Shown piece by piece: positions 9,549 through 31,441 of a stretch of DNA of 64,000 bases. The stretch comes from Candidatus Omnitrophota bacterium (lineage in GTDB: Bacteria > Omnitrophota > Gorgyraeia > 2-01-FULL-45-10): NCBI GenBank assembly GCA_030695905.1, contig JAUYOL010000043.1, forward strand, positions 64,998 to 128,997. The letters are read 5' to 3'. Each line of letters opens with the position of its first letter. The first letter of the stretch is position 1. The notes below the pieces were generated by a model that was not told where the DNA came from, ran no database searches, and saw nothing but the letters and a program-made list of their open reading frames with translations. The position numbers were made by a program, and so were the translations under genes.

Positions 9549-10262
9549 TTAAGAGGGATCCGCTCTGTGTGTTATATTCTTATCGATGAAATTTATTATG
9601 GCTTTTTCTTTTTCAGGAGTAAGGTGCGTGAAAGCTATCCCCGTGCCGGGATAGAAATGCGGTTGAAGTTCTTTATCCGCCAACCATATGACCCTGCCCG
9701 CGGTATCGGTAAATTTTATCTCACCGGGAAGGTCAATCTCCATTTCTATTTGGCTGTTGATGGGGAATGTGTATTTGGAGAATATATACATTCCCGCGGC
9801 GCTCAAATTGAGGATTTCTCCTTCGAACACTTTGGGGCGCTTTTGATTTCCAACGAGCCAATACTTCACTTTTAGGCTTATATCGAGCCGTTTGAACCTG
9901 CGCCTCAAAGGCATGGCCAGAACCGCAGCGTCATAAAAACTTTTTATAGCGGACTCCTCGTCAGGATATACTTCGAAAGTATTTTCCAGCTTTACTATTT
10001 TAAAGAGTTCTATTACCTGAGGCGATACGTTAAGGAATTTAATCTTACCTTTATGGTTAAGTACATTTTTGTAGGCTATGGCGAGGACTGAAAGACCGCT
10101 GTAGTCCACCATGTTGACATTTTCGAAGTTTAAGATGAAGTTAAGCTTGCCGGAGCCCAGGAAGTATCCTATCATCTCGATGATATCAGAAGAGTTGATA
10201 TCAATATTGCCTTCGGCATCGATAATAGTTATATTTCCGCTTTCCCTGAATCTTATCGGCAT
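9549..10262 (-). CDS. STAS (anti-sigma antagonist-like) - PilZ fusion protein
   Basis: 237 aa. N-terminal SpoIIAA-like STAS segment, then PilZ motifs RRRFKR ... NLSAAG. Confidence 0.6.
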   Translation of the reverse strand: MPIRFRESGNITIIDAEGNIDINSSDIIEMIGYFLGSGKLNFILNFENVNMVDYSGLSVLAIAYKNVLNHKGKIKFLNVSPQVIELFKIVKLENTFEVYPDEESAIKSFYDAAVLAMPLRRRFKRLDISLKVKYWLVGNQKRPKVFEGEILNLSAAGMYIFSKYTFPINSQIEMEIDLPGEIKFTDTAGRVIWLADKELQPHFYPGTGIAFTHLTPEKEKAIINFIDKNITHRADPS

Positions 10263-10265
10263 AAA

Positions 10266-10406
10266 TTATGGTTGGCGGAAGAAGAACGTGCTTACTCCTC
10301 TGCCCATCCTGTTGACATCCTTGCCTACCCCGGAGACGGTCTCTCCGCAACCCATTAATATGGCAGTCACGCTTATTAACAATAAAAATAATAGCATCTT
10401 TTTCAT
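10266..10406 (-). CDS. entericidin EcnA/B-family lipoprotein (46 aa), not in the ORF track
   Basis: Translates to MKKMLLFLLLISVTAILMGCGETVSGVGKDVNRMGRGVSTFFFRQP. It has a lipobox LMGC and the entericidin-like G.G.D....G motif. RBS AGGGAGGG. Confidence 0.5.
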   Translation of the reverse strand: MKKMLLFLLLISVTAILMGCGETVSGVGKDVNRMGRGVSTFFFRQP

Positions 10407-10425
10407 TATTACCCTCCCTCTAACG

Positions 10426-10959
10426 TTATCTCATCAGCCTTCTGGGATCCTGCGGCTCCCCTTCTTTGCGTATTTCGAAATGCAGGTGCGGCTGCATAGA
10501 TTTCGAAGCGGCATTTCCGGTTTTGCCGACATATCCTATCAGATCACCCTTATTTACGCGCTGGACCGGTTTAATGGCCCAGTCCGCAAGATGTCCATAG
10601 TATGTTTGGTATCCGCCCGGATGGTATATCATTACATACTTTCCGTATCCGGTAGGTACTTCTGCTTTAAATGCGGTGCCGCTCTTTGCCGCGTAAACAG
10701 GCGTTCCTGTAGGAGCTAAAATATCTATCCCGCTGTGCGAACGGCCGTTTCGCCTTTTAGAGCCAAATTCACCATCGCCATGCGCGTCATTACGCACCAC
10801 CATCTTTGAAGGCGATGTATGTACGGGGCGTATAAAAAACGGCTCCCTTATATTGAATATCAATAATGATACAGGATCATATAACAATATGGTAGCCGCT
10901 ATCGTTATGGTGATAATAGCTGCTACGATAATAAAATCTCTCTTCATCGCGCTCTTCAT
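10426..10959 (-). CDS. M23 family metallopeptidase (membrane-anchored)
   Basis: 177 aa. HSGIDI...HLH motifs and an N-terminal TM segment. Confidence 0.75.
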   Translation of the reverse strand: MKSAMKRDFIIVAAIITITIAATILLYDPVSLLIFNIREPFFIRPVHTSPSKMVVRNDAHGDGEFGSKRRNGRSHSGIDILAPTGTPVYAAKSGTAFKAEVPTGYGKYVMIYHPGGYQTYYGHLADWAIKPVQRVNKGDLIGYVGKTGNAASKSMQPHLHFEIRKEGEPQDPRRLMR

Positions 10960-11024
10960 ATTACAGAAGAAGCCATATTTCTTTTTATAAGAAGATATGG
11001 CTTCTTTATATATATTTTAGGTTA

Positions 11025-11420
11025 TTATTTTTCAGCTTGCTCGGCCTGCACAGGTTCCTGAGCTTTTTCTTTTAGAGCTTCGGAGGGTACTTTTATTGTG
11101 CCTTCGCCCGCTTTCACGACAGTTTCAGCGGTACCTGTTATAGGCTCGGTTATCAGTTCTTTTGTCTTGGCAACATCACCCGTGGTGACTTCTCCTACCC
11201 TTTTTACGGTTGTGCTAACCACGTCAGCGCTTCTCTTCGTTGTGTCCGCGACTACTGAAGCAGACTCTTCAGTAACCCTGGCAGGGTAACCAAGAAGATT
11301 TCTCCAGAAATTTTTTACTTTTGTTCCGAACGTCTCTTTTTCTGCGGCAAATGACGCAGATACAAACATAGCGGATATTAATAGTGCCGCTATCGCTACT
11401 ACAAATACTCTTCTCTTCAT
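11025..11420 (-). CDS. secreted hypothetical protein
   Basis: Signal peptide followed by a low-complexity TVK/TGE-rich region. Confidence 0.4.
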   Translation of the reverse strand: MKRRVFVVAIAALLISAMFVSASFAAEKETFGTKVKNFWRNLLGYPARVTEESASVVADTTKRSADVVSTTVKRVGEVTTGDVAKTKELITEPITGTAETVVKAGEGTIKVPSEALKEKAQEPVQAEQAEK

Positions 11421-11475
11421 CTTGCTCCTCCTTCAATTGATTTGATGTACACTATATAATATATATCGTATTTTT

Positions 11476-11835
11476 TCAAGTAAAAACGATCATCTTTATT
11501 GCCACTGCCAGAAGTATCACTCCAAATATTTTTTTCAGAATCATGTCAGGTATTGTCTGCACCATTTGGGCGCCTACCAACCCGCCTACTATAAAGCCCA
11601 ATGCTATGAACATCGCTATATCCAGTTTTACATTTCCGCTGTAATAGTATCTCAATGCCGCCAGCAGTGTTATTGGGGGCACCATTACCGCAAGAGAGGT
11701 TCCCTGCGCCTGATGTTGGGTCAGCCCGAATATATAAACAAGTACCGGCGTAAGAAGGATGCCCCCGCCTAATCCCATAAAACCGCTGAAGATGCCTGCC
11801 GCAAGCCCTAATAATATGTAGGATAGCCAAATCAT
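11476..11835 (-). CDS. TauE/SafE (DUF81)-like membrane protein, short form
   Basis: 119 aa with 4 TM segments and a GxGGG motif. Confidence 0.45.
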   Translation of the reverse strand: MIWLSYILLGLAAGIFSGFMGLGGGILLTPVLVYIFGLTQHQAQGTSLAVMVPPITLLAALRYYYSGNVKLDIAMFIALGFIVGGLVGAQMVQTIPDMILKKIFGVILLAVAIKMIVFT

Positions 11836-11852
11836 AGGACGCCCCCCGCATT

Positions 11853-12341
11853 CTATTTCAACAAAGACATTACCAGTTGGTTTACGACTTTTCCGTCTGC
11901 TTTCCCTTTAACTTTTTCCATTACGGCTTTCATGGCTTTTCCGGTATCAGCCTTGGACGTTATACCCATCTCTTGTATGGTGGCCTTTATGATAGACAGA
12001 AGCTCTTCCTCACCCATTTGGGCAGGTACGTATTTTTGCAGGATATCAAGTTCTGCCTTCTCTTTATTTACAAGATCAGGCCTATTACCCTTCTCAAACT
12101 GCGCAATAGACTCCTTGTGTTCTTTTATCATCCTCTGGATCACTGAAACTATATCTACATCTTCCAGCTTTTTAACTTTTTTTGATATTTCGGTATTCCT
12201 TACAGCAGCAAGCAGCATGCGCATTACAGACAATCTTACATTATCCTTGCCGCGCATCGCATCTTTCATTTCCGAATCAATTTTTTCGTATAGATCCATG
12301 AGTGGTGCTCCTGTGTTAATAGACAAAAACATCTCCTTCAA
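11853..12341 (-). CDS. GatB/YqeY domain protein (start probably at an internal Met)
   Basis: Segment DAMRGKDNVRLSVMRMLLAAVRN matches the YqeY family. Confidence 0.6.
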   Translation of the reverse strand: MKEMFLSINTGAPLMDLYEKIDSEMKDAMRGKDNVRLSVMRMLLAAVRNTEISKKVKKLEDVDIVSVIQRMIKEHKESIAQFEKGNRPDLVNKEKAELDILQKYVPAQMGEEELLSIIKATIQEMGITSKADTGKAMKAVMEKVKGKADGKVVNQLVMSLLK

Positions 12342-12409
12342 ATCGCCTTTATATTAGGAAAAAGAGATTTTAAAGAGTATAAAACTTTAGTGAGGAGGGA
12401 AGTCGAAAG

Positions 12410-12610
12410 TTAAATCTTCACAACTTTCGTTGCCTGATCTCCCTTAGGGCCCTGGACGATATCAAACTGAACCTTATCGCCTTCTTTCAGGCTCTTGAAT
12501 CCTTCGCCTTCTATTGCGGAGTGATGAACAAAGACGTCTTTACCAGTGTCAGCAACTATGAAGCCGTACCCTTTTTTGTCATTGAACCACTTTACTGTTC
12601 CTTGCGCCAT
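12410..12610 (-). CDS. cspA: cold-shock protein (CspA family)
   Basis: Starts [18 protein letters not shown] with the RNP1 motif. Start chosen at the internal Met of track ORF 12410..12646. Confidence 0.85.
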
Positions 12611-12731
12611 TTTATCTTTTTCACCCCCTTCCAACAAAAAAGCCACCCAAGGCTCACAAAAAGCCTTTGATGGCTACATAACTATTTTTTGAAAATATTC
12701 AGCACTAAGTACCTACTTAAACTATAGGTAG

Positions 12732-12760
12732 AGTATATATCATAATTTACGTATTGTCAA
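12732..12760 (-). promoter_or_regulatory. sigma70 promoter TTGACA-N17-TATACT for cspA, with about 110-nt 5' UTR
   Basis: Minus strand ttgacaatacgtaaattatgatatatact. It overlaps the last codons of def. Confidence 0.45.
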
Positions 12761-13216
12761 GCGGTTAGAGAATAATAGTTTCTTTATGGGGCTCAAATAG
12801 TCTATTATGAGTTTGCCCAATAAATGATCGATTTCATGCTGAAGTACGCGCGCTAACAGCCCATGTGCGGTTATTTTTACGGCCTCGCCGCCCTCATTTA
12901 AATATTCAACCGTGACTTTTTTCGCTCTTTTTACCTTTATAGCGGCTTCGGGGACGCTTAAACAGCCCTCTTCCTGCGTTTCACAGCCGTCCTTTTTAAC
13001 TACTACGGGGTTTATTAATTTGATAAGGCCGTCTCCTATGTCTATTACAGCAAGCTGTTTATCTATGCCTACCTGGCACGCGGCCAGGCCTACCCCGCCC
13101 TTTAGGTACATGACCTTTGCCATTTCGTCCAGCATCCTCTTTTCTTCATCAGATACCTTAAGGACTTTGGAGGTCTTTTTTCTTAAGCAGGGATTTGGGA
13201 GGCAGACTATTTCCAT
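12740..13216 (-). CDS. def: peptide deformylase
   Basis: Motifs GLAACQVG, EGCLSVP and HEIDHL. Confidence 0.9.
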   Translation of the reverse strand: MEIVCLPNPCLRKKTSKVLKVSDEEKRMLDEMAKVMYLKGGVGLAACQVGIDKQLAVIDIGDGLIKLINPVVVKKDGCETQEEGCLSVPEAAIKVKRAKKVTVEYLNEGGEAVKITAHGLLARVLQHEIDHLLGKLIIDYLSPIKKLLFSNRLTIRKL

Positions 13217-13230
13217 CGTAGTTCCTACGG

Positions 13231-13584
13231 CTATTTTGTGCTTTTTATGCGGTTTTTGTCGTCTACTTTTACTGCTATTAATTTTAGTTTTTTTGCGGTT
13301 TTGTCATCTACAAGGCAATTTGACAGGATTATTACCAAGTCTCCTACTTTTCCCAGGTGGGCGGCCGCGCCATATAGGCCTATTGTGCCTGAACCGGCCA
13401 CTTCTTCTATGGTATACGTCTCGAACCTGGACCCGTTATTTATATTAACGACCTGGACTATCTCGCCCGGGTAGATGTTGCTCGCCTTGAGAAGATCTTT
13501 GTCTATCCCTATGCTTCCTTCGTAGTGAAGATCGGCTTTTGTGATCCTGACACGATGTATCTTTGATTTACACATTAATCTCAT
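13231..13584 (-). CDS. panD: aspartate 1-decarboxylase
   Basis: Starts MRLMCKSKIHRVRITKADLHYEGSIGID. Confidence 0.85.
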   Translation of the reverse strand: MRLMCKSKIHRVRITKADLHYEGSIGIDKDLLKASNIYPGEIVQVVNINNGSRFETYTIEEVAGSGTIGLYGAAAHLGKVGDLVIILSNCLVDDKTAKKLKLIAVKVDDKNRIKSTK

Positions 13585-13587
13585 ATT

Positions 13588-13929
13588 TTACAGCTCGTCT
13601 ATATCGGTAAGATATTGTCCATCGAAGTATAATTTCCTGGTCCTGGAAAGATAATCCGCGTCTATGGGCAGGCCTGTCTGGGCACGATACACCCACATAT
13701 CGCGGGGATCCTGCCACCTCTTCTTATCCTCGATCGTGCTTATCTCATCCGGCTTGCCCCATTTAGCCTCTACTTCGTGTTTTGTCATACCTATCTTCAG
13801 GTCAGTCTTGCCAAGAGGATACTTTAACACATCATCCGGCTTCGGCAACGCCTCTATCAATGTACACCCGTAACCAGTTATCGCCAAGGCGATAATAACT
13901 ATCAAAAGTTTAATGCGCATGCCGGACAT
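13588..13929 (-). CDS. hypothetical lipoprotein
   Basis: Signal peptide plus the lipobox GYGC. Confidence 0.4.
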   Translation of the reverse strand: MSGMRIKLLIVIIALAITGYGCTLIEALPKPDDVLKYPLGKTDLKIGMTKHEVEAKWGKPDEISTIEDKKRWQDPRDMWVYRAQTGLPIDADYLSRTRKLYFDGQYLTDIDEL

Positions 13930-13930
13930 C

Positions 13931-14308
13931 TTAGCTCTCCTTCTGTAGGTTGTATATCAAATCACATAAGAATTTTAAAAATGTATTCTTATTGTCTTCT
14001 TCTATTTCGATAAATTCCACACCGATGTCGTAAGGCGCGTTATCTTCCAGGCTTAATCTCTTTTTCCATACTACCTTACCCTTGGCGTGTACCGGATTAT
14101 GAGTGTCATATATTTCAAGCTTGAGCTCAATAGTGCCCGATACCTTAATATCTTTCGCGTTAGATTCTAATCTCAAGCCGTCAGCGGATATATCTTTGGT
14201 TATAGCGCTGTATATGCTGCCGGTTTCAGGGACTGTATACGTCACCGGTATAGGCGATTTAAGCCTAATATACTTTCTTCTCTCGATAAGCCTGTCTTTT
14301 ATCTTCAT
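13931..14308 (-). CDS. PilZ domain protein
   Basis: Motifs RRKYIR and DISADG. Confidence 0.65.
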   Translation of the reverse strand: MKIKDRLIERRKYIRLKSPIPVTYTVPETGSIYSAITKDISADGLRLESNAKDIKVSGTIELKLEIYDTHNPVHAKGKVVWKKRLSLEDNAPYDIGVEFIEIEEDNKNTFLKFLCDLIYNLQKES

Positions 14309-14433
14309 ATTATCAACATGTTATGATGAATGCCAAAAAGGAATGATAGCATACGCATCGCGATGCGTCAATGATAAAAAAACAGAGCCACTCGTTATAA
14401 AACAAATGGCTCTGTTATCTTTGAATCACTTAA

Positions 14434-14799
14434 TTATTTAGTCGTACTTGCAGTTGAAGGCTCCATAAGCGGATCCGGCTTTACAGGGCTCTTATCGTAG
14501 TCGGGTATCGGGAAAGTGGCTAAATCGACCGCTCCAGAGATAGTTCTCGGAAACGCCTTTTTAAAACCATCCCATGCTCCGGCCGTGAGGCCTAATGCCG
14601 CGTTCTTTGACTCATTAGTAACCTGATATATAGATAGCGGTATGTCGGTCCAACCCAGCAAAAGATTCTTCAAGCCTCTTCCGGCCTTGTTCATCGCGCC
14701 TTTGCAAGCGTCAGAAGAAGCAGATTCAGCTGCATATGATAATCCTGAAAAAGATACTGCCAATAAAATTATGATTGCTACACAAAATAACTTTTTCAT
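14434..14799 (-). CDS. small secreted protein (paralog of 20501..20833)
   Basis: Signal peptide. Shares W.[DE][IL]P..IY...,  G...G and FP.PIP blocks with the paralog. Confidence 0.45.
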   Translation of the reverse strand: MKKLFCVAIIILLAVSFSGLSYAAESASSDACKGAMNKAGRGLKNLLLGWTDIPLSIYQVTNESKNAALGLTAGAWDGFKKAFPRTISGAVDLATFPIPDYDKSPVKPDPLMEPSTASTTK

Positions 14800-16555: not shown

Positions 16556-16558
16556 ATT

Positions 16559-17137
16559 TTAAAAGTCCAGCGATGCGTTGTCTGCCGTTAGCCTGCCGGA
16601 CCACTTTCCAAAACTTTTCTTGGGTTTTTCACCTTCTCTTAACTCAAGAAATATCTCGGTCGGGCAGTTTAAAATTATTTTTTTGAAGGCATACGATTCG
16701 TTCGGCTTTAAGACCGTTTTCGGATGAGTGGACAGATAGGGTATATTCACATAAGGAAGAACGCTTCCCCCCAGGGACGGCTCCTGCGGATACATCTGGG
16801 TCTGGTAGATAACAGCGTTGTCTTTATCCAGGAAATTTATTATTAGGCATAAATCGAGTATCTCCTTGGCGCCTTTATTAGTGACGGTTCCTTCTATTAT
16901 AGGTTTTCCCTTGAGAGGGCCGGTATTCTCTATTCTTGCGTCCAGCTTTTCAATGGCAATATATTTTGAATATATTTTTGCCTTGGCCTTGCCCAAGAGT
17001 TCGTGATAACTTGTCTCGAACTCCTTAGCCTTGAACTCAAGGTATATGAAATATCCCGCCAGTGTCAGTACCAGCACCAGAGCTATTACGAAGCTCGATA
17101 CTAACCCGACTATAAGGCTCTTCTTCTTTACAATCAT
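16559..17137 (-). CDS. hypothetical membrane-anchored protein
   Basis: 192 aa with an N-terminal TM segment. Confidence 0.35.
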   Translation of the reverse strand: MIVKKKSLIVGLVSSFVIALVLVLTLAGYFIYLEFKAKEFETSYHELLGKAKAKIYSKYIAIEKLDARIENTGPLKGKPIIEGTVTNKGAKEILDLCLIINFLDKDNAVIYQTQMYPQEPSLGGSVLPYVNIPYLSTHPKTVLKPNESYAFKKIILNCPTEIFLELREGEKPKKSFGKWSGRLTADNASLDF

Positions 17138-17670
17138 TACCTATTTCCCTTAATTTCGTTTTTGTAGCGTTCCCTTATAGAATTGAATATTGATATATAC
17201 TCGTCTGTCCTGTAATCAGGATATGTCCATGGCCAGGCATTGAATTTTTCACCCATGAAATGCAGCGTTACTTCGGCATATATATTATTACCGACATGCA
17301 TCCTGTGCGAATAATCTTTTGTGGAGAAGAGCACGAGCTTGGCCAGGTCCAGGTATCCCGGATCTATATTTATTGCGCGTTTATTATTAAGAGAAAATTT
17401 ATCTTCTATCTTATTCGAGACCAATTTCATCTTTTCAATATTTTTTAAAGAGACCAGTTTTTTAAAACTTAAGAATTTACGCTTTAAATTAATGCCCATC
17501 TCTTTGTTGTAATAATCCGTGTAAGAAAAATCGATAATAGTGCTTTCAAAGTCGATTTTGTTTTTAAATCTTTTTTCCAGTAAAAGCTTTGCTTTGTCAA
17601 AGAGCTCCGTATCGTTGGATATGAGTCCTGTAATTAGCTTAACTTTTCCGGCGGTTCGTATATTACCCAT
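17137..17670 (-). CDS. DUF4416-like protein
   Basis: N-terminus MGNIRTAGKVKLITGLI resembles DUF4416, recalled from memory. Confidence 0.35.
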   Translation of the reverse strand: MGNIRTAGKVKLITGLISNDTELFDKAKLLLEKRFKNKIDFESTIIDFSYTDYYNKEMGINLKRKFLSFKKLVSLKNIEKMKLVSNKIEDKFSLNNKRAINIDPGYLDLAKLVLFSTKDYSHRMHVGNNIYAEVTLHFMGEKFNAWPWTYPDYRTDEYISIFNSIRERYKNEIKGNR

Positions 17671-18127
17671 GCAGGATATCGGCGAGATGGGTGTGCGCGG
17701 GCTCTTTTAACGCGATAAATTTTACACCGCAATGAAATAGTCTTTTGCCGAACGAATCCTGATCCTGCGCGTCTTTAATCCATACGACCTCGGCCTCGAC
17801 TTCCACTACTTTCTTTTTTTCCGGTATATATGCTTTAATATCCATTATTGAGCCTTCAGGCAGTTTTTCATCTATAAGAAGTTTCATTCCACCGCCGGAC
17901 ACATTTATGGTCCTGCCGGGTTTGAGATGAGATTTTTTTTCTACGCTATATTCAACTTCCAGGTCCTTGTCAAAACGCTGATGCTTGCGCCTCTCTTCGC
18001 TGTCCCAGTATTCTTCTATTTTGGCGCGGGGCGTTATTCTTTTATTCGTTATTCTCTCATGTGCCCATAACATAAAGAGCGTTACGGATAGTAATGCCAA
18101 AAAGCATGTCCCTACAATAAAAAACAT
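17663..18127 (-). CDS. PilZ domain protein with N-terminal TM helix
   Basis: Motifs RRKHQR and NVSGGG. Confidence 0.6.
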   Translation of the reverse strand: MFFIVGTCFLALLSVTLFMLWAHERITNKRITPRAKIEEYWDSEERRKHQRFDKDLEVEYSVEKKSHLKPGRTINVSGGGMKLLIDEKLPEGSIMDIKAYIPEKKKVVEVEAEVVWIKDAQDQDSFGKRLFHCGVKFIALKEPAHTHLADILHG

Positions 18128-18487
18128 CTACCGGCCTTTCTTATTTGAAATATAAGTAGCTATGATTTCTTTATCCTTAGCTGATAGATCATCAAAAAAT
18201 ACCGCTATATCATAATGTTTTATGATACCGTCTACTATGACCGAATGCTGCCTCACAACTATGCCGCTTACCTCGATATTCTTCGCGCCGGGTTTGTCCT
18301 TTGAGAAATCGGGCACCATAAGCATCAGTTTTACCCTGGACATCAGAGGCAGCTCTTTGTCTACTTTGCAATATACTCCCGACGTGCTTATATTTAGAGT
18401 ATGGGTTATCGAATCGAACCCGTCCAACTTAAGCGAAAGAGTGTCATCCTCTAATCGCGGAAACCGTCTTCTTTCTTCAGAAACCAT
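18128..18487 (-). CDS. PilZ domain protein
   Basis: Motifs RRRFPR and NISTSG. Confidence 0.65.
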   Translation of the reverse strand: MVSEERRRFPRLEDDTLSLKLDGFDSITHTLNISTSGVYCKVDKELPLMSRVKLMLMVPDFSKDKPGAKNIEVSGIVVRQHSVIVDGIIKHYDIAVFFDDLSAKDKEIIATYISNKKGR

Positions 18488-18515: not shown

Positions 18516-19595
18516 TTAATCATCTACTTCTATTAATTTGTAATCCAAATTGCCGAGCCCGAGTTCGTTGGCGTACTTTAGCTGCACCGTCCAGTCTATT
18601 TCAGAGTGCCGGGCTCTAAATATGTCCTGCTTGCCCATATTGTTTAAAAGGTCCGCAGACGCCTTATCTATGCTGACCAGATCGTCTGAGGCAAGTATGC
18701 CTATATCATGTGTTATCCTGGGTTCGTCCTTTGCAAGACAATCGCAGTCTCCGGTTATATTTGTAAGAAAATTTATATAACCCAGCTTTCTGTCAAGGAT
18801 CTCCACCGCACCGTAGGCATATTCTACCATCTTCTCTTGCAGGTTTGCAAGTGTTTCGCTCCATTTTGTGGTCAAAGCGTCCGTTTTACATACCACTACA
18901 CACTCACCACAGCCGATGCACCTGGTTTCATCCAGTCTTGCCTTACCCGCTTCAAGGCTAATACACCCCGCGGGACAATTGGCAACACAGAGTCCGCAGC
19001 CTACACAGTGTTCTATGTTGAAATCGGGAACGATCCCGCAATGTTGTTCGAACTTTCCCCGTCTCGATGCGCAGCCCATGCCCAGGTTTTTTATCGCACC
19101 GGCAAAACCGGTCATTATATGGCCCGTTATATGAGTTAGCGCCAATAGGCTGTCGCAGTCGGCGATATCAGAAGCTATCTTTACTTTGGAAAAGCGTTTC
19201 TTGTTTATCTCTACTTCTACAAAATTTCTGCCCCAAACCCCGTCCGCTATGATTACCGGTACACCCATCTTATCGAATCCGAAACCATGTTTATACGAAA
19301 GCTTAAGGTGATCTACGGCATTTGTCCTCTCGCTCTCCTTATACAGCACATTTGTGTCGGTGAAGAATATATTTTTTGTTCTTGATTGTACATTACTAAC
19401 CAGGCTTTTGAGCCAATCGGATTTTATGTGGCCGGTATTGCCGCTCTCTCCGAAATGTATCTTAATGCCGGTGTAAGAATCCTTTTTTATAAAGTTTAGC
19501 ACTCCGGATCGCTTGACAAGATTTTCTATCTTCTTATTTATTGCCTCGTCTTTTTCGCTGCTATCCAGCCTTGTCAGGTATACATTACTCGGCAT
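18516..19595 (-). CDS. DUF362 domain protein with two 4Fe-4S ferredoxin motifs
   Basis: CVGCGLCVANCP and CIGCGECVVVC. Confidence 0.6.
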   Translation of the reverse strand: MPSNVYLTRLDSSEKDEAINKKIENLVKRSGVLNFIKKDSYTGIKIHFGESGNTGHIKSDWLKSLVSNVQSRTKNIFFTDTNVLYKESERTNAVDHLKLSYKHGFGFDKMGVPVIIADGVWGRNFVEVEINKKRFSKVKIASDIADCDSLLALTHITGHIMTGFAGAIKNLGMGCASRRGKFEQHCGIVPDFNIEHCVGCGLCVANCPAGCISLEAGKARLDETRCIGCGECVVVCKTDALTTKWSETLANLQEKMVEYAYGAVEILDRKLGYINFLTNITGDCDCLAKDEPRITHDIGILASDDLVSIDKASADLLNNMGKQDIFRARHSEIDWTVQLKYANELGLGNLDYKLIEVDD

Positions 19596-19702: not shown

Positions 19703-20050
19703 TTATTTTGAGGGAGCTTGCTCTTTGGCATCAGAAGGATTTTCGGGCGTTTGGGCCTGCTCTTCTTTCTTTGCCGTCGTCTTCCAGCATCTCTTGGTGC
19801 AGAAAAATTTGCCATTTCTGTAGTAATAGCGTTTTTTCTTTATCGATTTGTTGCACACTGCGCAATTGACAGGCTTCTCTTTCTTCTTCTCTTCAACTTT
19901 TTTCTCTTCCGCGGGTTTTCCGGCAGCTTCAGCCTTTGGCGCCTCGGCCTTGGGGGCTTCCTGCGCAGGAGCTTCGGCCTTAGGAGCCTCTTGTTTAGGA
20001 GTCTCGGCCTTCGGAGTTTCTTTTGTCTGGTCTTTCTTTTCTTCAGCCAT
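19703..20050 (-). CDS. small basic Ala/Lys/Pro/Glu-rich protein with C-terminal zinc-ribbon
   Basis: PKAEAPKAEA repeats, then CAVCNKS...FFCTKRC. Confidence 0.45.
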   Translation of the reverse strand: MAEEKKDQTKETPKAETPKQEAPKAEAPAQEAPKAEAPKAEAAGKPAEEKKVEEKKKEKPVNCAVCNKSIKKKRYYYRNGKFFCTKRCWKTTAKKEEQAQTPENPSDAKEQAPSK

Positions 20051-20059: not shown

Positions 20060-20416
20060 TCATTTCCTTTCTGATAGTTTCAACCACAGTGAATAGATAT
20101 AATCTAACAATCTACTTTTATCAAACCCATCTATAACGGCAAACCTGATGCCGGTTTCATACGCGCTTTTTTTTGGTTCGAGTATCGATTTTCTCTGCCA
20201 CGCTACAGTACCTGAAACGAATATCGGCACATTGTCTCCAGGCACGTCTAAAGATACATTTATCTCGGAGCCGTTATCAAGCGGTGTATCTAAAACTATG
20301 AGGGCGCCGGACTTAGAGATATTCTTTACTTCGTAAGTCCTCTTTATGCCGCGGCCTATTTCGCAGATCGCCTTCAGTGCGGCATTGAATCTTATGAAAT
20401 CTCTTCTCTCTATCAT
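20060..20416 (-). CDS. PilZ domain protein
   Basis: Motifs RRDFIR and NISKSG. Confidence 0.65.
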   Translation of the reverse strand: MIERRDFIRFNAALKAICEIGRGIKRTYEVKNISKSGALIVLDTPLDNGSEINVSLDVPGDNVPIFVSGTVAWQRKSILEPKKSAYETGIRFAVIDGFDKSRLLDYIYSLWLKLSERK

Positions 20417-20500: not shown

Positions 20501-20833
20501 TTATTTGCCCTTAAATACAAACTCCGGTTCCAATACTGGATTATATCCTTCCGGTATCGGGAATGGGAATGTCACCGTCTCGTAAACGCCGGCGCCAGTC
20601 CTAACGATCGTCATTCCGACTCCTTTTGCCAATCCAATTGTTAAACCAGAGAGAGGATTATCTTCTACGCTTGTGTCGTAAATGTTCTTAGGTAGTTCTA
20701 CCCAGCCAGTTACGATGTTCGCGACTCCTCTGTATAGTTTCTTTCCCATATCCTGTGCATAGCTAGCAGAAGCCATATTCAGGACCATCAACACAGCAAC
20801 GCATATAATTATACCCTTTAGTAAGCTTTTCAT
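20501..20833 (-). CDS. small secreted protein (paralog of 14434..14799)
   Basis: Signal peptide and the shared blocks described for the paralog. Confidence 0.45.
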   Translation of the reverse strand: MKSLLKGIIICVAVLMVLNMASASYAQDMGKKLYRGVANIVTGWVELPKNIYDTSVEDNPLSGLTIGLAKGVGMTIVRTGAGVYETVTFPFPIPEGYNPVLEPEFVFKGK

Positions 20834-20920: not shown

Positions 20921-21346
20921 CTATTTTCTCGACCTGGATTGGGATTTTATTATCTCTTCCACAGCTTCGGATATCCTATCCCTGTCCTCCGGCCTTATAT
21001 CGATAAATTCTACTCCGGTATCGTAAATATAGCTGCCCTTCTGTTTGGGTTCGGATTTTTTGACTACCCATACGACTGTGCCGCCGCATTTTATAGGCGG
21101 ACGGTCGTCTTCAAGGAATAATTCGAGGTCAACACCCTGGAAAAGGCCCAAATCTTCCTTTATAATCACACATATCCCGCCAGCGCCTATATTCTCTGTG
21201 TTTGTGGATATAGTCTTTGCGGTGAGACGTTTTTTGATCGTAATAAGACACTTGTAGCTTGCTCTCGGGAATTTTCTTCTGTTAATACCGTTCCACATAA
21301 AATAAATCTCCTTATTGTGCTTTTCAACACGCATTACAGTATACAT
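20921..21346 (-). CDS. PilZ domain protein
   Basis: Motifs RRKFPR and NIGAGG. Confidence 0.65.
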   Translation of the reverse strand: MYTVMRVEKHNKEIYFMWNGINRRKFPRASYKCLITIKKRLTAKTISTNTENIGAGGICVIIKEDLGLFQGVDLELFLEDDRPPIKCGGTVVWVVKKSEPKQKGSYIYDTGVEFIDIRPEDRDRISEAVEEIIKSQSRSRK

Positions 21347-21420: not shown

Positions 21421-22239
21421 ATGTATAGAGAATTCTTCGGCCTTAAAGAGAAGCCTTTCAACGTTACCAGCGACCCGAACTTTCTTTTTTTAAGTCGTGT
21501 CCATAAAGAAGCGTTTTCGCATCTTTTATACGGCATTAAAGAAAGAAAAGGCTTTTTGGAGATAACCGGAGAAATAGGCGCCGGCAAGACCACCCTTTGC
21601 AGGGCGCTTTTGAATCATCTCGACGCTAATACAAAGAGCGCGTTCATCTTTAATTCCACTCTTCCCGATATGCAGTTATTCCAAACGATACTCGAAGACT
21701 TCGGCCTGTCCGTAGAAAGAAAAACCAAAGCGGCCATGTTGAGGCAATTTAATAATTTTTTGCTCGAAGAGCTTTCGAGAAATAAAAATGTCGTTCTGAT
21801 AATAGATGAAGCGCAAAATCTTAAAAACTCCGTTCTTGAAGAGTTGAGGATACTTTCGAATCTTGAGACAGAAAAAGAAAAACTTTTTCAGATGATCCTT
21901 GTCGGCCAGCCTCAATTAAGAGATAAGATCAACTCCCCCGGCCTGGAGCAGTTAAGGCAGAGGATCAGCGTAAGGTTCCATATCACGCCTCTGGAAAGCA
22001 ACGAAGTCGTAGAATACATATGCCACCGTCTTAAGGTTGCGGGTTCAAGGGGTGATATAAATTTTTCCGATGCGGCACTGGAAGGTATTTATAGGTATTC
22101 CAAAGGGATACCGAGGATAATAAACAAAGTGTGTGACAAGGCGCTCCTTTGCGCCTATGTCGTCGAAACAAAACATATAGATCTTTCAATAATTGAAAGG
22201 TGCATACAAGAGATAGAAGGGGTGGTGGCTGTAGCATGA
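21421..22239 (+). CDS. ExeA/GspA/MshM-like AAA ATPase
   Basis: N-terminus FGLKEKPFNVTSDPNFLFLSRVHKEAFSHLLYGI and the Walker A motif GEIGAGKTTL. Confidence 0.7.
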   Translation: MYREFFGLKEKPFNVTSDPNFLFLSRVHKEAFSHLLYGIKERKGFLEITGEIGAGKTTLCRALLNHLDANTKSAFIFNSTLPDMQLFQTILEDFGLSVERKTKAAMLRQFNNFLLEELSRNKNVVLIIDEAQNLKNSVLEELRILSNLETEKEKLFQMILVGQPQLRDKINSPGLEQLRQRISVRFHITPLESNEVVEYICHRLKVAGSRGDINFSDAALEGIYRYSKGIPRIINKVCDKALLCAYVVETKHIDLSIIERCIQEIEGVVAVA

Positions 22240-22787
22240 GCATAATACAGGAAGCTTTAAAAAAAGCCCAGGGTGATTTTTCCGAAAAAAAGATACCTGA
22301 AGTGACCGAATCGGTTAAGTGCGCGGACTCGGTTAAGGAAGCCGCGCTGCCGGCGCCTGAAATTCAAATTCCGCATGACATAAAAAATATAACGTCTAAG
22401 CGCCTGCCTGCTTTGGTGGGGATATTGGCAATACTTCTGCTCGCTTATGGCCTTAGATTATCTTTGCAATATTCTGATAGAAATGCCGATAAATCCAAGC
22501 GTGTGCCCGTAAGCCAGGAGAGCCGTGACGCTTCCGTATCCGCGCCTAAGGTAGTAGAAGACTTCACTCCGCCTAAGACGAACCCTGTAAGTTTCGTAAC
22601 GAAGCGGAATCCCCTATTTAATTTAAGCGGTATAATGTATCTGGAAGATGGGCCTCAAGCTATTATAAATGGCTATGTGCTTGAGGAAGGAGACAAAATA
22701 AACGGCGCCACTGTCCTGGTTATCGAGAAAGATTGCGTCCTGCTCGATGTGAATAATTCTAATGTGAGGCTGGAACTTAACAATTAA
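22236..22787 (+). CDS. GspB-like membrane protein partnered with ExeA
   Basis: ATGA overlap with the exeA stop. One TM segment. C-terminal segment GIMYLEDGPQAIINGYVLEEGDKINGATVL resembles GspB. Confidence 0.45.
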   Translation: MSIIQEALKKAQGDFSEKKIPEVTESVKCADSVKEAALPAPEIQIPHDIKNITSKRLPALVGILAILLLAYGLRLSLQYSDRNADKSKRVPVSQESRDASVSAPKVVEDFTPPKTNPVSFVTKRNPLFNLSGIMYLEDGPQAIINGYVLEEGDKINGATVLVIEKDCVLLDVNNSNVRLELNN

Positions 22788-29136: not shown

Positions 29137-29374
29137 TTTTTGAAATAATTTTAGGATCGCGTGTATAGCTATATCCTGTAGTGGATGTGGTCCTGTGCGC
29201 CGCTAATATTTTTAGTTTAACCAGGTCTTCAAGAGCTTTTCTAACCTTTGAGCGCTCCTCGCGTACCCATGTGGAAATACCTCGCGGCGTATCTATAGAG
29301 GCCTGGTTTTCATGAAAGAATTTCATTATCTTAAAGTGCAGTTCCGATAAAGCGGTCTTGTCATCGTTTGCCAT
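29102..29374 (-). CDS. small hypothetical protein (possible winged-helix)
   Basis: About 90 aa. Overlaps both neighbours. Confidence 0.3.
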   Translation of the reverse strand: MANDDKTALSELHFKIMKFFHENQASIDTPRGISTWVREERSKVRKALEDLVKLKILAAHRTTSTTGYSYTRDPKIISKIEKLLKKRKSA

Positions 29375-30884
29375 GTTTTTCCCTCGCAAGCATTTCACTT
29401 ATATCTTTTCTCTTTATGACTTCTAAAAACGCCTGTACTACTTTTGGATCAAATTGTTTTCCTGAGCTGTTGCGGATCTCTTCGGCCGCCGCGTTTATGG
29501 ATTTAGGCGTCCTGTAAGGCTTTTTCGTTATCATGGCCTCAAAAGCGCTCACTACCGCCATTATCCTGGCGCCTACAGGGATCTGGTCTTTCTTCAGTCC
29601 TTTGGGATAGCCTGTGCCGTCGTAGTTTTCATGGTGATGGAGTATTATAGGGATTATCGACTTTAATGCCTTTATCGGTTTTAATATTTCTGCGCCTATT
29701 ATCGGATGTTCTTTTACCAGATTATACTGTTTTTCGGTGAGCTTCGCGGGTTTTTTAAGGACTTCTTCGGGCACGATCAGCTGCCCCGCGTCATGCAACA
29801 GTATCGAGTATTCTATGCTCTTGAGCTCATATCCGGAAAGGTGTAATTTTTGTCCGACCAGCGTCGTTATCCTTAAAAATGAAGCCCGCGGCATATACTG
29901 GCCGCTTTTGCGCGTGCTCACTATTGCCGCAAGGGACTTTATCATTCCAAATGTTAATTTCTCCTGCTCCTTATATAGATGCGCGTTCTTTATCGCTATT
30001 ACCGCCTGCTCGGCAAGGGTGGACATTATCTCCTGGTCGAATTGCGTGAAGGGTTTGCCGTCTATCTTGTCATATAGCGTTATAACACCGATGACATCCT
30101 CGTCTATCAAAGGTGTGGCCAGGTGATTTTTGTCGCGTATCGGCCTGCCGAATTTCGCGGCTTTGCCCGGCGACCAGCGGCCTATGCGCACCTTCTTAAG
30201 CTTTGATTTAGTTTCTCTCAAGTCTACAGTGGCCTTCGGCAGCAGCAGTTTTTTGGTGGAATCTACAAGTTTTATGGAACATCTGTTGGCCCTTATTACT
30301 TGCAATGAAAGTCTCGCCACTCGAGGCAGAAGCTCGTTCATATCAAGGGTAGAGCCTATAAGCCTGTGCACCGTGTGGACCGTCGATAACGCTATAGCGC
30401 GCGGACGTATCGTCTCATACAATTTGGATAGCTCAAGTTCTTTCTGCACTTCTTTTACTATAGTATCCGTAAAAGCGGCGAAGATGTCCATTATCTCGTC
30501 GGAGACATCTTTTTTGGTATAACATGCGCCTATGTAGCCGTATAGTTTGTCGCCCTGCGAAATAGGATAGATGAATCCGCGCAGGCCCTCTATGCATTCA
30601 AACCGCACCATCCTTTTCTCCAGGCCGGCCTTTTCCACCATATCTTCCAACATCCTGACGCAGCTGGCGCCTTTTTGGAAATCAGGTTTTTTAAGAAATG
30701 GGCATGTGTTTAAGACGAGTTTCTTTATAGACGCCGCTGAAGGATGCGGCTCCTCTATGAGCCACCACATAGCGCTCTTTAGGCATGAGCCGAAACATTC
30801 TTCTTCTTTTTTCAGGCTTACGCTCTTCTTCAGCTTGTCAAAAAGTTCCTGTTGGTATTCCCTGTCTGTAAATTCCTGCTTCAT
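29361..30884 (-). CDS. GAF domain - HD-GYP phosphodiesterase (c-di-GMP hydrolysis)
   Basis: HD...HHENYDGTGYP signature. Confidence 0.75.
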   Translation of the reverse strand: MKQEFTDREYQQELFDKLKKSVSLKKEEECFGSCLKSAMWWLIEEPHPSAASIKKLVLNTCPFLKKPDFQKGASCVRMLEDMVEKAGLEKRMVRFECIEGLRGFIYPISQGDKLYGYIGACYTKKDVSDEIMDIFAAFTDTIVKEVQKELELSKLYETIRPRAIALSTVHTVHRLIGSTLDMNELLPRVARLSLQVIRANRCSIKLVDSTKKLLLPKATVDLRETKSKLKKVRIGRWSPGKAAKFGRPIRDKNHLATPLIDEDVIGVITLYDKIDGKPFTQFDQEIMSTLAEQAVIAIKNAHLYKEQEKLTFGMIKSLAAIVSTRKSGQYMPRASFLRITTLVGQKLHLSGYELKSIEYSILLHDAGQLIVPEEVLKKPAKLTEKQYNLVKEHPIIGAEILKPIKALKSIIPIILHHHENYDGTGYPKGLKKDQIPVGARIMAVVSAFEAMITKKPYRTPKSINAAAEEIRNSSGKQFDPKVVQAFLEVIKRKDISEMLAREKHGKR

Positions 30885-30940
30885 AAGATTAGATTATATT
30901 GTCCTTTATGAATATTGTCAATTTGTAACGGCCCGGGCGG

Positions 30941-31441
30941 TTATCTGTAATTACAGAAAGTAAGAGCTAAGGGATAATCTATCTTTTTAAGATGCGCTAT
31001 GACCGACTGCAAGTCATCTTTTTTCGGCGAAGAGACCCTTATCTTCTCTCCTTCTATCTGCGCCTGGACTTTAAATCCCAGCCCTTTTATTATTTTAACG
31101 AGTTCCTTGGCCTTATCCTGCGGTATGCCGGCGGCCAGATCCGCTATCTGCTGAAGGCATCCGCCGAATATGCTTTGCGGCTCCGCGAATGTCAGAAGCT
31201 TCATCGAGACGCCTCTCTTCGCGAGTTTTGCCGCAAGTATATCATTTACAGAGCGCAGCTTAAAATCGTCATCACCCACAAGCGTTATCTTTTTCTCGTT
31301 CCGGTTGTAATCGATAGACGACTTACTGCCCCTGAAATCGAATCTCTGCGCGAGCTCTTTCTTGGCCTGGTTTACCGCGTTGTCCACTTCCTGCAGGTCC
31401 GCTTCGGAAATTATGTCGAATGAAAAACTTTCTTTTGCCAT
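30941..31441 (-). CDS. yajQ: YajQ family (UPF0234) nucleotide-binding protein
   Basis: Starts MAKESFSFDIISEADLQEVDNAVNQAKKELAQRFDFRG. Confidence 0.75.
   Translation of the reverse strand: MAKESFSFDIISEADLQEVDNAVNQAKKELAQRFDFRGSKSSIDYNRNEKKITLVGDDDFKLRSVNDILAAKLAKRGVSMKLLTFAEPQSIFGGCLQQIADLAAGIPQDKAKELVKIIKGLGFKVQAQIEGEKIRVSSPKKDDLQSVIAHLKKIDYPLALTFCNYR

What the first reader, a model, noticed from the sequence alone, without database searches (positions are those of the whole stretch)
9549..31441. Exceptional density of c-di-GMP effector and turnover genes: six PilZ proteins, STAS-PilZ fusion, GAF-HD-GYP and YajQ
Within about 22 kb there are five single-domain PilZ proteins (13931, 17663 with a TM segment, 18128, 20060 and 20921). 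Each carries the RxxxR and [DN]xSxxG motifs. There is also a STAS-PilZ fusion, a GAF-HD-GYP phosphodiesterase and YajQ. YajQ homologues are reported c-di-GMP receptors in Xanthomonas. The PilZ genes are interleaved with small secreted or lipoprotein genes and a DUF362-ferredoxin. This suggests a paralogous expansion of c-di-GMP receptor-target modules.
Basis: partly seen in the sequence, partly recalled or inferred. Interest (0 to 1): 0.6.

Follow-up and report, generated by a model that had tools for sequence, protein, structure and literature searches.

The report
Conserved PilZ receptor gene array, Omnitrophota
An uncultivated Omnitrophota bacterium packs six genuine, anciently diverged c-di-GMP receptor (PilZ) genes into 12 kb, and related genomes keep the same arrangement, so this is an old, unusually dense gene array rather than a recent duplication.

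Summary
Pfam places all six proposed PilZ proteins above the curated threshold. It also confirms the STAS-PilZ fusion, a GAF-HD-GYP phosphodiesterase with HD and GYP motifs intact, and YajQ/DUF520.

All six PilZ genes lie in 11.8 kb (9549-21346). The other 52 kb of the window has none, and the window has no GGDEF or EAL gene and no c-di-GMP riboswitch.

- **Age of the paralogues.** The six domains are 18-28% identical to each other. Each has much closer positional orthologues in Candidatus Omnitrophota MAGs, so they are ancient orthogroups, not a recent local expansion.
- **Binding motifs.** RxxxR and [DN]xSxxG are conserved within orthogroups. The exception is the 20921 group, which always has N-I-G-x-G-G.
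- **Receptor-target modules.** The array, with 6-9 PilZ genes per 20 kb, persists in a distant Omnitrophota group, but most genes between the PilZ genes are replaced there. The small neighbouring proteins carry signal peptides, so they are unlikely direct partners of cytoplasmic PilZ proteins. General pairing of each PilZ with a neighbouring target is therefore not supported.
- **Conserved neighbours.** These are ExeA/GspB-like genes divergent from PilZ20921, PilZ18128 with DUF4416, and a membrane-anchored PilZ next to a DUF362-ferredoxin gene.

The most likely function is a set of c-di-GMP-dependent adaptor proteins. This is inferred, not shown. I rate it a new member of a known kind, of moderate interest.

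The parts
9549..10262 (-). STAS-PilZ fusion protein (237 aa)
   Evidence: Pfam STAS 53.9 bits and PilZ 45.1 bits. Motifs RRFKR and NLSAAG. Orthologues in L004, L007 and L013. About 25-30 full-length representatives among 1.84e9 50%-identity clusters. Nine of 10 tested carry both domains.
13931..14308 (-). single-domain PilZ, orthogroup 13931 (125 aa)
   Evidence: Pfam PilZ 57.9 bits. Motifs RRKYIR and DISADG. The orthogroup occurs in 31 loci with both motifs conserved.
17663..18127 (-). membrane-anchored PilZ, orthogroup 17663 (154 aa, N-terminal TM helix)
   Evidence: Pfam PilZ 58.0 bits. Motifs RRKHQR and NVSGGG. The TM helix is conserved in 7 of 7 close orthologues and in 24 of 25 members of the equivalent distant-group orthogroup next to DUF362. 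Its stop overlaps the DUF4416 start by 8 nt.
18128..18487 (-). single-domain PilZ, orthogroup 18128 (119 aa)
   Evidence: Pfam PilZ 28.8 bits. Motifs RRRFPR and NISTSG. The orthogroup occurs in 36 loci. DUF4416 lies within 1.5 kb downstream in 35 of 35 loci.
20060..20416 (-). single-domain PilZ, orthogroup 20060 (118 aa)
   Evidence: Pfam PilZ 49.2 bits. Motifs RRDFIR and NISKSG. The orthogroup occurs only in the close group, in 10 loci.
20921..21298 (-). single-domain PilZ, orthogroup 20921 (125 aa from the corrected start; the mechanical ORF runs to 21346), with variant second motif N-I-G-x-G-G
   Evidence: Pfam PilZ 54.5 bits. Motifs RRKFPR and NIGAGG. The variant is invariant across 25 loci and 30 database homologues. 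At least 464 homologous 90%-identity clusters were found, and every one that carries an organism name is Omnitrophota. It is 73-90% identical to close-group orthologues, more than AroB or Def. The corrected start rests.
20501..20833 (-). h110, small secreted TIGR04073-family protein
   Evidence: NCBIfam TIGR04073 105.6 bits, cut-off 50. Signal-peptide-like N-terminus. 85-93% identical to close-group orthologues. Promoter-like site at 20899-20871 and terminator-like hairpin at 20483-20445.
14434..14799 (-). h121, second TIGR04073-family secreted protein
   Evidence: NCBIfam TIGR04073 62.2 bits. Terminator-like hairpin at 14416-14381 and promoter-like site at 14863-14835.
17137..17670 (-). DUF4416 protein
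   Evidence: Pfam PF14385 189.7 bits. AF2 model with pLDDT 90, but only weak HPPK-like fold similarity (TM 0.42). Always next to orthogroup 18128 in Omnitrophota, but not next to a PilZ gene in three other phyla or orders.
18516..19595 (-). DUF362 protein with an inserted 2x[4Fe-4S] ferredoxin domain
   Evidence: Pfam DUF362 133.7 bits plus Fer4 families. Used as the anchor for the synteny search.
19703..20050 (-). Znr115, low-complexity plus C-x2-C-x17-C-x3-C zinc-ribbon protein
   Evidence: Sequence inspection. Only sub-threshold Pfam zinc-finger hits. Conserved beside the PilZ genes in both Omnitrophota groups.
21421..22787 (+). ExeA-like AAA_22 ATPase (21421-22239) and T2SSB/GspB-like protein (22200-22787), divergent from PilZ20921
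   Evidence: Pfam AAA_22 101 bits. T2SSB scores 26.7 bits, below its 28.4-bit cut-off. An ExeA homologue lies divergently upstream of orthogroup 20921 in 17 of 17 loci with coverage.
29361..30884 (-). GAF-HD-GYP phosphodiesterase (507 aa)
   Evidence: Pfam HD_5 126 bits, GAF_2 39.9 bits. HD and GYP motifs intact. Orthologues sit upstream of the same block in L020 (740 bits) and L057 (329 bits).
30941..31441 (-). YajQ/DUF520 protein, directly upstream of the HD-GYP gene
   Evidence: Pfam DUF520 200 bits. Its synteny in relatives could not be examined because the fetched loci end before this point.

Best explanation
The window comes from a Candidatus Omnitrophota genome. Positions 9.5-21.3 kb hold an ancient gene array of six PilZ-domain c-di-GMP receptors that is conserved in position across related genomes. 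Five are stand-alone and one of those is membrane-anchored. The sixth is fused to a STAS domain. The array sits in a block of housekeeping and cell-envelope genes. A GAF-sensor HD-GYP phosphodiesterase lies 8 kb further on.

Shown:
- The domain assignments.
- Deep divergence of the paralogues.
- One-to-one orthogroups across many Omnitrophota genomes.
- Conservation of the c-di-GMP-contacting motifs within orthogroups.
- Persistence of the array (6-9 PilZ genes per 20 kb) in a distant Omnitrophota group where most interleaved genes differ.

Inferred:
- Each PilZ is a small cytoplasmic or membrane-tethered adaptor. It binds c-di-GMP through RxxxR and [DN]xSxxG and then binds or releases its own protein partner, as MapZ, HapZ and N5MapZ do. 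One nucleotide pool would thus drive several outputs.
- The pool would be made by diguanylate cyclases encoded elsewhere and degraded by the HD-GYP enzyme.
- Partners need not be encoded next door. The best candidates from conserved adjacency are the ExeA/GspB-like secretin-assembly pair for PilZ20921, and DUF4416 and the DUF362-ferredoxin for PilZ18128 and the membrane-anchored PilZ.
- The array most likely arose by old in-situ duplications followed by divergence.
For: - **Domains.**
- **Motifs.**. They are conserved within orthogroups.
- **Organism and synteny.**
- **Paralogue divergence against orthologue closeness.** 18-28% identity between paralogues; distance 0.81-0.86 to paralogues against 0.03-0.45 to orthologues; similarity 0.57-0.86 within orthogroups against 0.06-0.28 between them.
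- **Density.** 198 PilZ ORFs in 524 kb of syntenic loci, 3 in 244 kb of non-syntenic Omnitrophota loci, 0 in 305 kb of loci labelled as other phyla.
- **Turnover of neighbours in the distant group.**
- **HD-GYP.** Motifs intact and syntenic in L020 and L057.
- **Operon-like packing.** PilZ20060, Znr115, DUF362, PilZ18128, PilZ17663, DUF4416, h192 and the hydrolase are separated by gaps of 0-28 nt or overlaps, apart from one 107-nt gap.
- **Adaptor precedent for single-domain PilZ proteins.** PMC11250160.
- **Precedent for a lineage-specific PilZ expansion that keeps binding residues while surfaces diverge.** PMC11800159.
- **GGDEF domains and small pilZ genes are reported in Omnitrophota.** bioRxiv 10.1101/2023.11.21.568195.
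Against: - No binding or interaction data exist for any of these proteins.
- No diguanylate cyclase is encoded in the 64-kb window.
- PilZ20921 lacks the motif serine in every homologue, so it may not bind c-di-GMP.
- No solved structure is close enough to check the binding pocket, and the AF2 model of PilZ20921 failed.
- Conserved adjacency could simply reflect slow rearrangement of a compact genome.
- DUF4416 is not linked to PilZ outside this phylum.
- The density baseline comes from other lineages, not from the rest of this genome.
- Deep branching between paralogues cannot be resolved with 100-residue domains, so in-situ duplication is an inference.
Confidence: 0.65

Rival explanations
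1. One reading: a recent, local paralogous expansion in which each PilZ was duplicated together with the neighbouring gene it regulates, giving receptor-target modules.
For: Six PilZ genes lie in 11.8 kb. Two PilZ genes each sit beside a TIGR04073 paralogue. Some adjacencies are conserved.
Against: - The paralogues are only 18-28% identical, and each has far closer orthologues elsewhere.
- Gene order in the two PilZ/TIGR04073 pairs is opposite.
- The TIGR04073 genes look monocistronic.
- Their products carry signal peptides, while the PilZ proteins do not.
- The neighbours are replaced in the distant group.
Confidence: 0.07
2. Passive relic: the array is the leftover of very old tandem duplications, kept together only because this part of a small genome rearranges slowly. 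Under this reading, neither the clustering nor the neighbours carry functional meaning, and the PilZ proteins act on unrelated targets encoded elsewhere.
For: - The whole 25-kb block, including PanD, Def, AroB and GNAT, is collinear in the close group.
- Known single-domain PilZ partners are commonly not encoded next to the PilZ gene. This rests on my own knowledge of MapZ/CheR1; one search gives the partners but not gene positions.
- DUF4416 has ordinary housekeeping neighbours in other phyla.
Against: - Between the close and distant groups most interleaved genes have changed, yet 6-9 PilZ genes remain together.
- Specific pairs survive the rearrangement in 17 of 17 and 35 of 35 loci.
- PilZ20921, h110 and ExeA are among the most conserved proteins of the block.
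Confidence: 0.25
3. PilZ20921 is a non-binding structural PilZ. Like the type IV pilus PilZ of Pseudomonas and Xanthomonas, it would have lost c-di-GMP binding and serve as a constitutive adaptor for a secretion or pilus machine, here the divergently encoded ExeA/GspB-like pair.
For: - The serine of [DN]xSxxG is replaced by glycine in all homologues.
- Conservation is extreme over the whole domain, with mean column identity 71%.
- ExeA lies divergently upstream in 17 of 17 loci.
- The weak PDB hits of a sister PilZ (13931) are to the Xanthomonas type IV fimbriae assembly PilZ.
Against: - RRxxxR is intact and invariant, and the rest of the second motif (N, G, G) is kept.
- The non-binding PilZ proteins lack these motifs altogether. 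That statement rests on my own knowledge.
- A profile of the group aligns motif for motif with the c-di-GMP-binding B. subtilis YpfA/MotI, though only weakly (E 0.12).
Confidence: 0.3

Closest known systems
Single-domain PilZ adaptor proteins (P. aeruginosa MapZ/PA4608 and HapZ, Xanthomonas N5MapZ/XAC3402)
   Same: Size of about 120 aa, a lone PilZ domain, and intact RxxxR and [DN]xSxxG motifs in five of six. The expected mode of action is c-di-GMP-dependent binding of a partner protein (PMC11250160).
   Different: There is no detectable sequence relationship beyond the Pfam profile. Six to nine such genes are clustered here, whereas Xanthomonas citri has three in its whole genome. The partners are unknown.
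Lineage-specific PilZ expansion in Leptospirales (YcgR-GAZ paralogues, PMC11800159)
   Same: [quoted passage not shown] That paper reads the pattern as neofunctionalisation.
   Different: Those proteins are PilZN-GAZ-PilZ proteins of about 45 kDa. The passages I read do not describe them as clustered. Here the proteins are minimal single domains arranged in one conserved array.
Small pilZ homologues downstream of Omnitrophota giant genes (bioRxiv 10.1101/2023.11.21.568195)
   Same: Same phylum. That paper notes one or several small pilZ genes as a conserved neighbourhood feature.
   Different: No giant gene lies within this 64-kb window; the largest ORF is 1030 aa. The neighbours here are housekeeping and envelope genes, not sugar-transport systems. 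I could not test whether the orthogroups are the same.
YcgR-type flagellar brake proteins
   Same: They share the PilZ domain and binding motifs. JGI annotates homologues of PilZ20921 with this name.
   Different: There is no PilZN domain, the proteins are 123-125 aa, and no flagellar genes occur in the window. The name is an over-annotation.
YajQ-family c-di-GMP effectors (Xanthomonas XC_3703, Lysobacter; PMC4199771, PMC6988422)
   Same: Full-length DUF520 match at 200 bits. The gene sits directly upstream of a c-di-GMP phosphodiesterase gene.
   Different: DUF520 is a widespread family. c-di-GMP binding has been shown only for some proteobacterial members. No LysR partner gene is seen here.

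Membership tests
PilZ domain (PF07238) | Match to the Pfam profile above the gathering score over the whole domain | tested here: met
   Six proteins score 28.8-58.0 bits against a cut-off of 22.5, covering profile positions 1-2 to 99-101 of 102.
PilZ domain (PF07238) | N-terminal RxxxR (usually RRxxxR) c-di-GMP-binding motif | tested here: met
   Present in 6 of 6 and conserved in every orthogroup.
PilZ domain (PF07238) | [D/N]xSxxG motif about 20-30 residues after RxxxR | tested here: met
   Met in five of six and conserved in their orthogroups. Not met in PilZ20921, which has N-I-G-x-G-G in all homologues.
PilZ domain (PF07238) | Beta-barrel fold with the motifs forming the nucleotide pocket | tested here: inconclusive
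   The AF2 model of PilZ20921 had pLDDT 42. No close PDB relative was found.
PilZ domain (PF07238) | Binding of c-di-GMP | not testable with these tools
   Needs DRaCALA, ITC or a comparable assay.
YcgR family (PilZN + PilZ) | N-terminal PilZN (YcgR_N) domain preceding PilZ | tested here: not met
   The proteins are 118-154 aa. Pfam finds only PilZ, apart from one sub-threshold unrelated hit each in two of them. The extra N-terminal segment of 17663 is a TM helix.
HD-GYP phosphodiesterase | HD_5/HD domain with the HD and GYP signature motifs | tested here: met
   HD_5 126 bits. HD at residue 364 and HHENYDGTGYPKG with GYP at residue 425.
HD-GYP phosphodiesterase | c-di-GMP hydrolysis | not testable with these tools
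   Needs an enzyme assay.
YajQ/DUF520 | Full-length match to PF04461 | tested here: met
   200 bits, profile positions 2-161 of 161.
YajQ/DUF520 as a c-di-GMP effector | c-di-GMP binding and a LysR-type partner | not testable with these tools
   This rests on the literature precedent only. No LysR gene is seen in the window.
STAS (anti-sigma-factor-antagonist-like) domain | Pfam STAS match. The SpoIIAA-type phosphorylatable serine in a D-x-S-G context is recalled from memory. | tested here: met
   STAS 53.9 bits. The sequence contains VDYSGL. No partner kinase or phosphatase gene was found in the window.
TIGR04073 exosortase system-associated proteins | NCBIfam model above its cut-off | tested here: met
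   h110 scores 105.6 bits and h121 62.2 bits against a cut-off of 50.
TIGR04073 exosortase system-associated proteins | Co-occurrence with an exosortase/PEP-CTERM system | not tested
   No exosortase gene appears among the annotated window genes. The rest of the genome was not available.

The most novel reading that the evidence does not exclude
Omnitrophota, a phylum of ultra-small and possibly host-dependent or predatory bacteria, maintain a selected 'c-di-GMP receptor island'. It would hold ten or more ancient stand-alone PilZ orthogroups, kept physically together with an HD-GYP phosphodiesterase and an ExeA/GspB-like pair while the surrounding genes turn over. At its core would be a phylum-specific, near-invariant PilZ with a variant N-I-G-x-G-G pocket (orthogroup 20921) that controls secretin, pilus or secretion-system assembly.
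Probability: 0.2. Interest if true: 0.6.

Novelty: new member of a known kind. Interest (0 to 1): 0.4.

Why it matters
Stand-alone PilZ proteins are the commonest c-di-GMP receptors, yet most have no known partner or function (PMC11250160).

- **A ready comparative data set.** A conserved array gives ten or more orthogroups, each with its own conserved surface and a shared binding motif. Covariation analysis or AF-multimer screens could use this to predict partners.
- **c-di-GMP signalling in Omnitrophota.** The array points to heavy investment in c-di-GMP signalling in an uncultivated phylum whose lifestyle is debated. My literature searches found no c-di-GMP gene census for it.
- **Two leads.** One is the invariant Ser-to-Gly variant of the PilZ motif in a protein more conserved than housekeeping enzymes. 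The other is the small STAS-PilZ family, which could link c-di-GMP to partner-switching regulation.

None of this changes how PilZ signalling is understood. It extends known biology to a new lineage and a new genomic layout.

Tried and rejected
2. **AF2 of PilZ20921.** A 30-sequence alignment gave pLDDT 42, so I ran no fold search.
3. **PDB sequence searches.** PilZ20921, PilZ13931, DUF4416 and DUF362 returned nothing useful. DUF362 matched only through its ferredoxin insert.
4. **DUF362-DUF4416 link outside Omnitrophota.** I first thought the Deltaproteobacteria locus L068 showed them adjacent. They are 8 kb apart.
5. **PilZ-DUF4416 pairing outside the phylum.** It is absent in Syntrophus, Desulfobacterota and Moorellales contigs.
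6. **c-di-GMP riboswitches.** Rfam found none, at gathering score over the whole window or at E<=1 over 9-32 kb.
7. **Extra c-di-GMP genes.** There is no GGDEF, EAL or further PilZ gene in the rest of the window.
8. **Tandem-duplication signal.** Adjacent orthogroups are no more similar than non-adjacent ones. The doubled 13931-like genes of the distant group are themselves old, at 26-31% identity within a locus.
9. **Literature.** Nothing was found on DUF4416 or TIGR04073.

Full report
**What is there**

Nearly all plausible genes between 7.8 and 33 kb lie on the minus strand.
- the STAS-PilZ fusion at 9549-10262;
- the single-domain proteins at 13931-14308, 18128-18487 (weakest, 28.8 bits), 20060-20416 and 20921-21346;
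- 17663-18127, which has an N-terminal hydrophobic helix.

The protein at 29361-30884 is GAF plus HD_5, with the HD and GYP motifs intact. The protein at 30941-31441 is a full-length DUF520/YajQ.

An HMM built from the six domains finds no seventh PilZ among all 737 ORFs of the window. Pfam annotation of the remaining genes shows only housekeeping functions and no GGDEF or EAL domain. Rfam finds no c-di-GMP riboswitch.

- PilZ20921 has RRKFPR but N-I-G-A-G-G, not [DN]xSxxG.
- Its real start is at 21298. Homologues start MWNGINRR, an AAGGAG box lies 8 nt upstream, and the longer ORF's ATG falls inside a -10-like box.
- All PilZ genes lie within 11.8 kb. The HD-GYP and YajQ genes are 8-10 kb further on.

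**Is the density more than chance?**

Given six PilZ genes in 64 kb, the probability that all fall within 11.8 kb is about 1e-3. Non-syntenic Omnitrophota-labelled loci fetched here contain 3 PilZ ORFs in 244 kb, and loci labelled as other phyla contain 0 in 305 kb. At the Omnitrophota rate, 0.145 PilZ genes are expected in 11.8 kb, so P(>=6) is about 1e-8. The baseline comes from other lineages, not from the rest of this genome, which I could not read.

**Source and relatives**

The DUF362-ferredoxin protein is found exactly on a metagenome contig from SRR13727529. The DUF4416 protein is identical to an NCBI entry from a Candidatus Omnitrophota MAG, on a 268-kb contig.

Searching one genome per species with the DUF362 protein returned 80 loci, mostly Omnitrophota MAGs. 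They fall into three sets.

1. **Close group** (DUF362 50-73% identical; L002-L015, L020). These are collinear with the window: ExeA/T2SSB (divergent) | PilZ20921, h110, PilZ20060, Znr115, DUF362, PilZ18128, (PilZ17663), DUF4416, h192, hydrolase, h121, PilZ13931, h113, PanD, Def ... M23, STAS-PilZ, radical SAM, GAF-ANTAR.
2. **Distant group** (about 45% identical). The order is rearranged: ExeA (divergent) | PilZ20921-type, PilZ ... Znr115, PilZ18128-type, DUF4416, M48 peptidase, DUF362, TM-PilZ, two PilZ13931-type genes, YqeY, PilZ, PilZ. There are up to 8-9 PilZ ORFs in 20 kb.
3. **Other Omnitrophota and other phyla.** Their DUF362 homologues have essentially no PilZ neighbours: 3 PilZ ORFs in 244 kb of the Omnitrophota loci and none in the rest.

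An HD-GYP orthologue lies upstream of the same block in L020 and L057.

**Paralogy**

- The six domains are 18-28% identical to each other.
- In a distance analysis of 199 PilZ domains, each window PilZ has positional orthologues at distance 0.03-0.45. Its nearest window paralogue is at 0.81-0.86.
- Clustering gives about ten main orthogroups, nearly always one copy per locus.
- Similarity is 0.57-0.86 within orthogroups and 0.06-0.28 between them. Adjacent groups are not more alike than non-adjacent ones.
- The one case of two members per locus (13931-type, distant group) is itself old, at 26-31% identity within a locus against 57-67% between loci.

The expansion is therefore ancient and predates the split of these Omnitrophota lineages. 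Recent local duplication is rejected. An in-situ origin by old tandem duplication remains the simplest history, but these short domains cannot prove it.

**Are they c-di-GMP receptors?**

RRxxxR and [DN]xSxxG are conserved within the orthogroups of 13931, 17663, 18128, 20060 and STAS-PilZ, and in the extra distant-group orthogroups. This is what purifying selection on nucleotide binding would produce. It parallels the Leptospirales YcgR-GAZ expansion, where paralogues share the binding residues and little else (PMC11800159).

Orthogroup 20921 is different:
- All 25 loci and 30 database homologues have N-I-G-x-G-G.
- A profile of the group aligns this with NISAGG of the c-di-GMP-binding B. subtilis YpfA/MotI, but only weakly (E 0.12).
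- It has at least 464 homologous clusters. Every one that carries an organism name is Omnitrophota.
- It is 73-90% identical across genomes whose AroB is 53-64% identical. It is more conserved than most housekeeping enzymes of the block. Only its neighbour h110 and the cold-shock protein are more conserved throughout, and ExeA and PanD are comparable.

Whether it binds c-di-GMP is open.

**Are the neighbours targets?**

Mostly not, for four reasons.
- h110 and h121 are both TIGR04073 'exosortase system-associated' proteins.
- h110, h121, h113 and h131 carry signal-peptide-like or lipoprotein-like N-termini. They would be outside the cytoplasm, where the PilZ proteins are expected to be.
- h110 and h121 each have a strong promoter-like site and a strong terminator-like hairpin of their own, so they look like separate transcription units.
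- In the distant-group locus L035, the genes between the PilZ genes are unrelated housekeeping genes: RNase III, HhH-GPD glycosylase, adenosine kinase, two M48 peptidases, an MBL-fold protein, dCMP deaminase, a thioesterase, PfkB and a radical SAM enzyme.

Three adjacencies do survive the rearrangement:
- ExeA lies divergently upstream of orthogroup 20921 in 17 of 17 loci.
- DUF4416 lies within 1.5 kb downstream of orthogroup 18128 in 35 of 35 loci.
- A membrane-anchored PilZ lies near DUF362 in both groups: directly downstream in the distant group (24 loci), and one gene further on, after PilZ18128, in the window and the close group. Its TM helix is conserved in 7 of 7 and 24 of 25 members.

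Tight spacing from PilZ20060 through the hydrolase suggests one operon holding three PilZ genes. However, DUF4416 in Syntrophus, Desulfobacterota and Moorellales sits beside YicC/Gmk/RpoZ, PfkB or NadA with no PilZ nearby. Its predicted fold is only weakly HPPK-like. The PilZ-DUF4416 link is therefore specific to this phylum and its meaning is unknown.

**Mechanism proposed**

*Shown:* an ancient, conserved array of PilZ genes with preserved binding motifs, and a syntenic HD-GYP gene with intact catalytic motifs.

*Inferred:* the proteins act as c-di-GMP-dependent adaptors in the manner of MapZ, HapZ and N5MapZ (PMC11250160), each with its own partner. The nucleotide would be made by cyclases encoded elsewhere; GGDEF domains are reported in Omnitrophota giant proteins. 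The GAF-HD-GYP enzyme would degrade it. The STAS-PilZ fusion could feed c-di-GMP into a partner-switching circuit. It belongs to a small recurrent family of about 25-30 full-length representatives among 1.84e9 clusters, and 9 of 10 tested carry both domains. YajQ is a family member whose receptor role rests only on the proteobacterial precedent.

**Comparison with known systems, and novelty**

The proteins are new, distant members of the PilZ family. They are not YcgR proteins, despite JGI's label, because they have no PilZN domain. Lineage-specific PilZ expansions are known in Leptospirales. Small pilZ genes have been noted downstream of Omnitrophota giant genes, but no giant gene lies in this window.

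What is new is the scale and conservation of the array, the invariant glycine variant, and the phylum. I rate it a new member of a known kind, of moderate interest.

Noticed in passing
window 351-3754 (-): Two tandem glnK (P-II) and amtB pairs encode near-identical proteins, at 351-692/704-1939 and 2159-2512/2519-3754. This is a recent tandem duplication of an ammonium-transport module.
   Followed up: no
window 42047-42117 (-): A tRNA gene (Rfam 67.7 bits) lies inside the 5' end of the mechanical ORF 41348-42130. The LysM-M23 peptidase gene must therefore start further downstream.
   Followed up: no
window 20501-20833 (-) and 14434-14799 (-): There are two paralogous TIGR04073 'exosortase system-associated' secreted proteins. 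h110 is the most conserved protein of the region, at 85-93% identity to relatives. It has strong promoter-like and terminator-like sites of its own. No exosortase gene is seen in the window.
   Followed up: partly
window 9549-10262 (-): The STAS-PilZ fusion is a small recurrent family. About 25-30 full-length representatives occur among 1.84 billion 50%-identity clusters, and 9 of 10 tested carry both Pfam domains. No partner-switching kinase or phosphatase gene is nearby.
   Followed up: partly
window 11476-11835 (-): A half-size TauE/SafE-like membrane protein (119 aa) matches only profile positions 2-108 of 237. Relatives keep it at this size.
   Followed up: no
window 17137-17670 (-): The DUF4416 model is confident (pLDDT 90) and has an alpha/beta fold only weakly similar to HPPK. 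In other phyla the gene sits next to yicC, gmk and rpoZ. No literature on it was found.
   Followed up: partly
window 19703-20050 (-): Znr115 has a Lys/Glu/Pro/Ala-rich low-complexity N-terminal half followed by a C-x2-C-x17-C-x3-C zinc ribbon. It is conserved beside the PilZ genes in both Omnitrophota groups.
   Followed up: no
window 7851-9534 (-): A GAF-ANTAR RNA-binding antiterminator-type regulator and a radical SAM enzyme lie directly downstream of STAS-PilZ. The arrangement is syntenic in L008, L009, L013, L014 and L020.
   Followed up: no
window 10962-11013: A strong hairpin lies between h131 and the M23 peptidase gene. It produced a spurious sub-threshold 'plastid psbA 3'UTR' Rfam hit and is probably a terminator.
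   Followed up: no
homologues of window 20921-21298 (P0008, P0020 and others): JGI annotates these 123-125 aa single-domain PilZ proteins as 'c-di-GMP-binding flagellar brake protein YcgR'. They lack the PilZN domain, so this is an over-annotation.
   Followed up: yes
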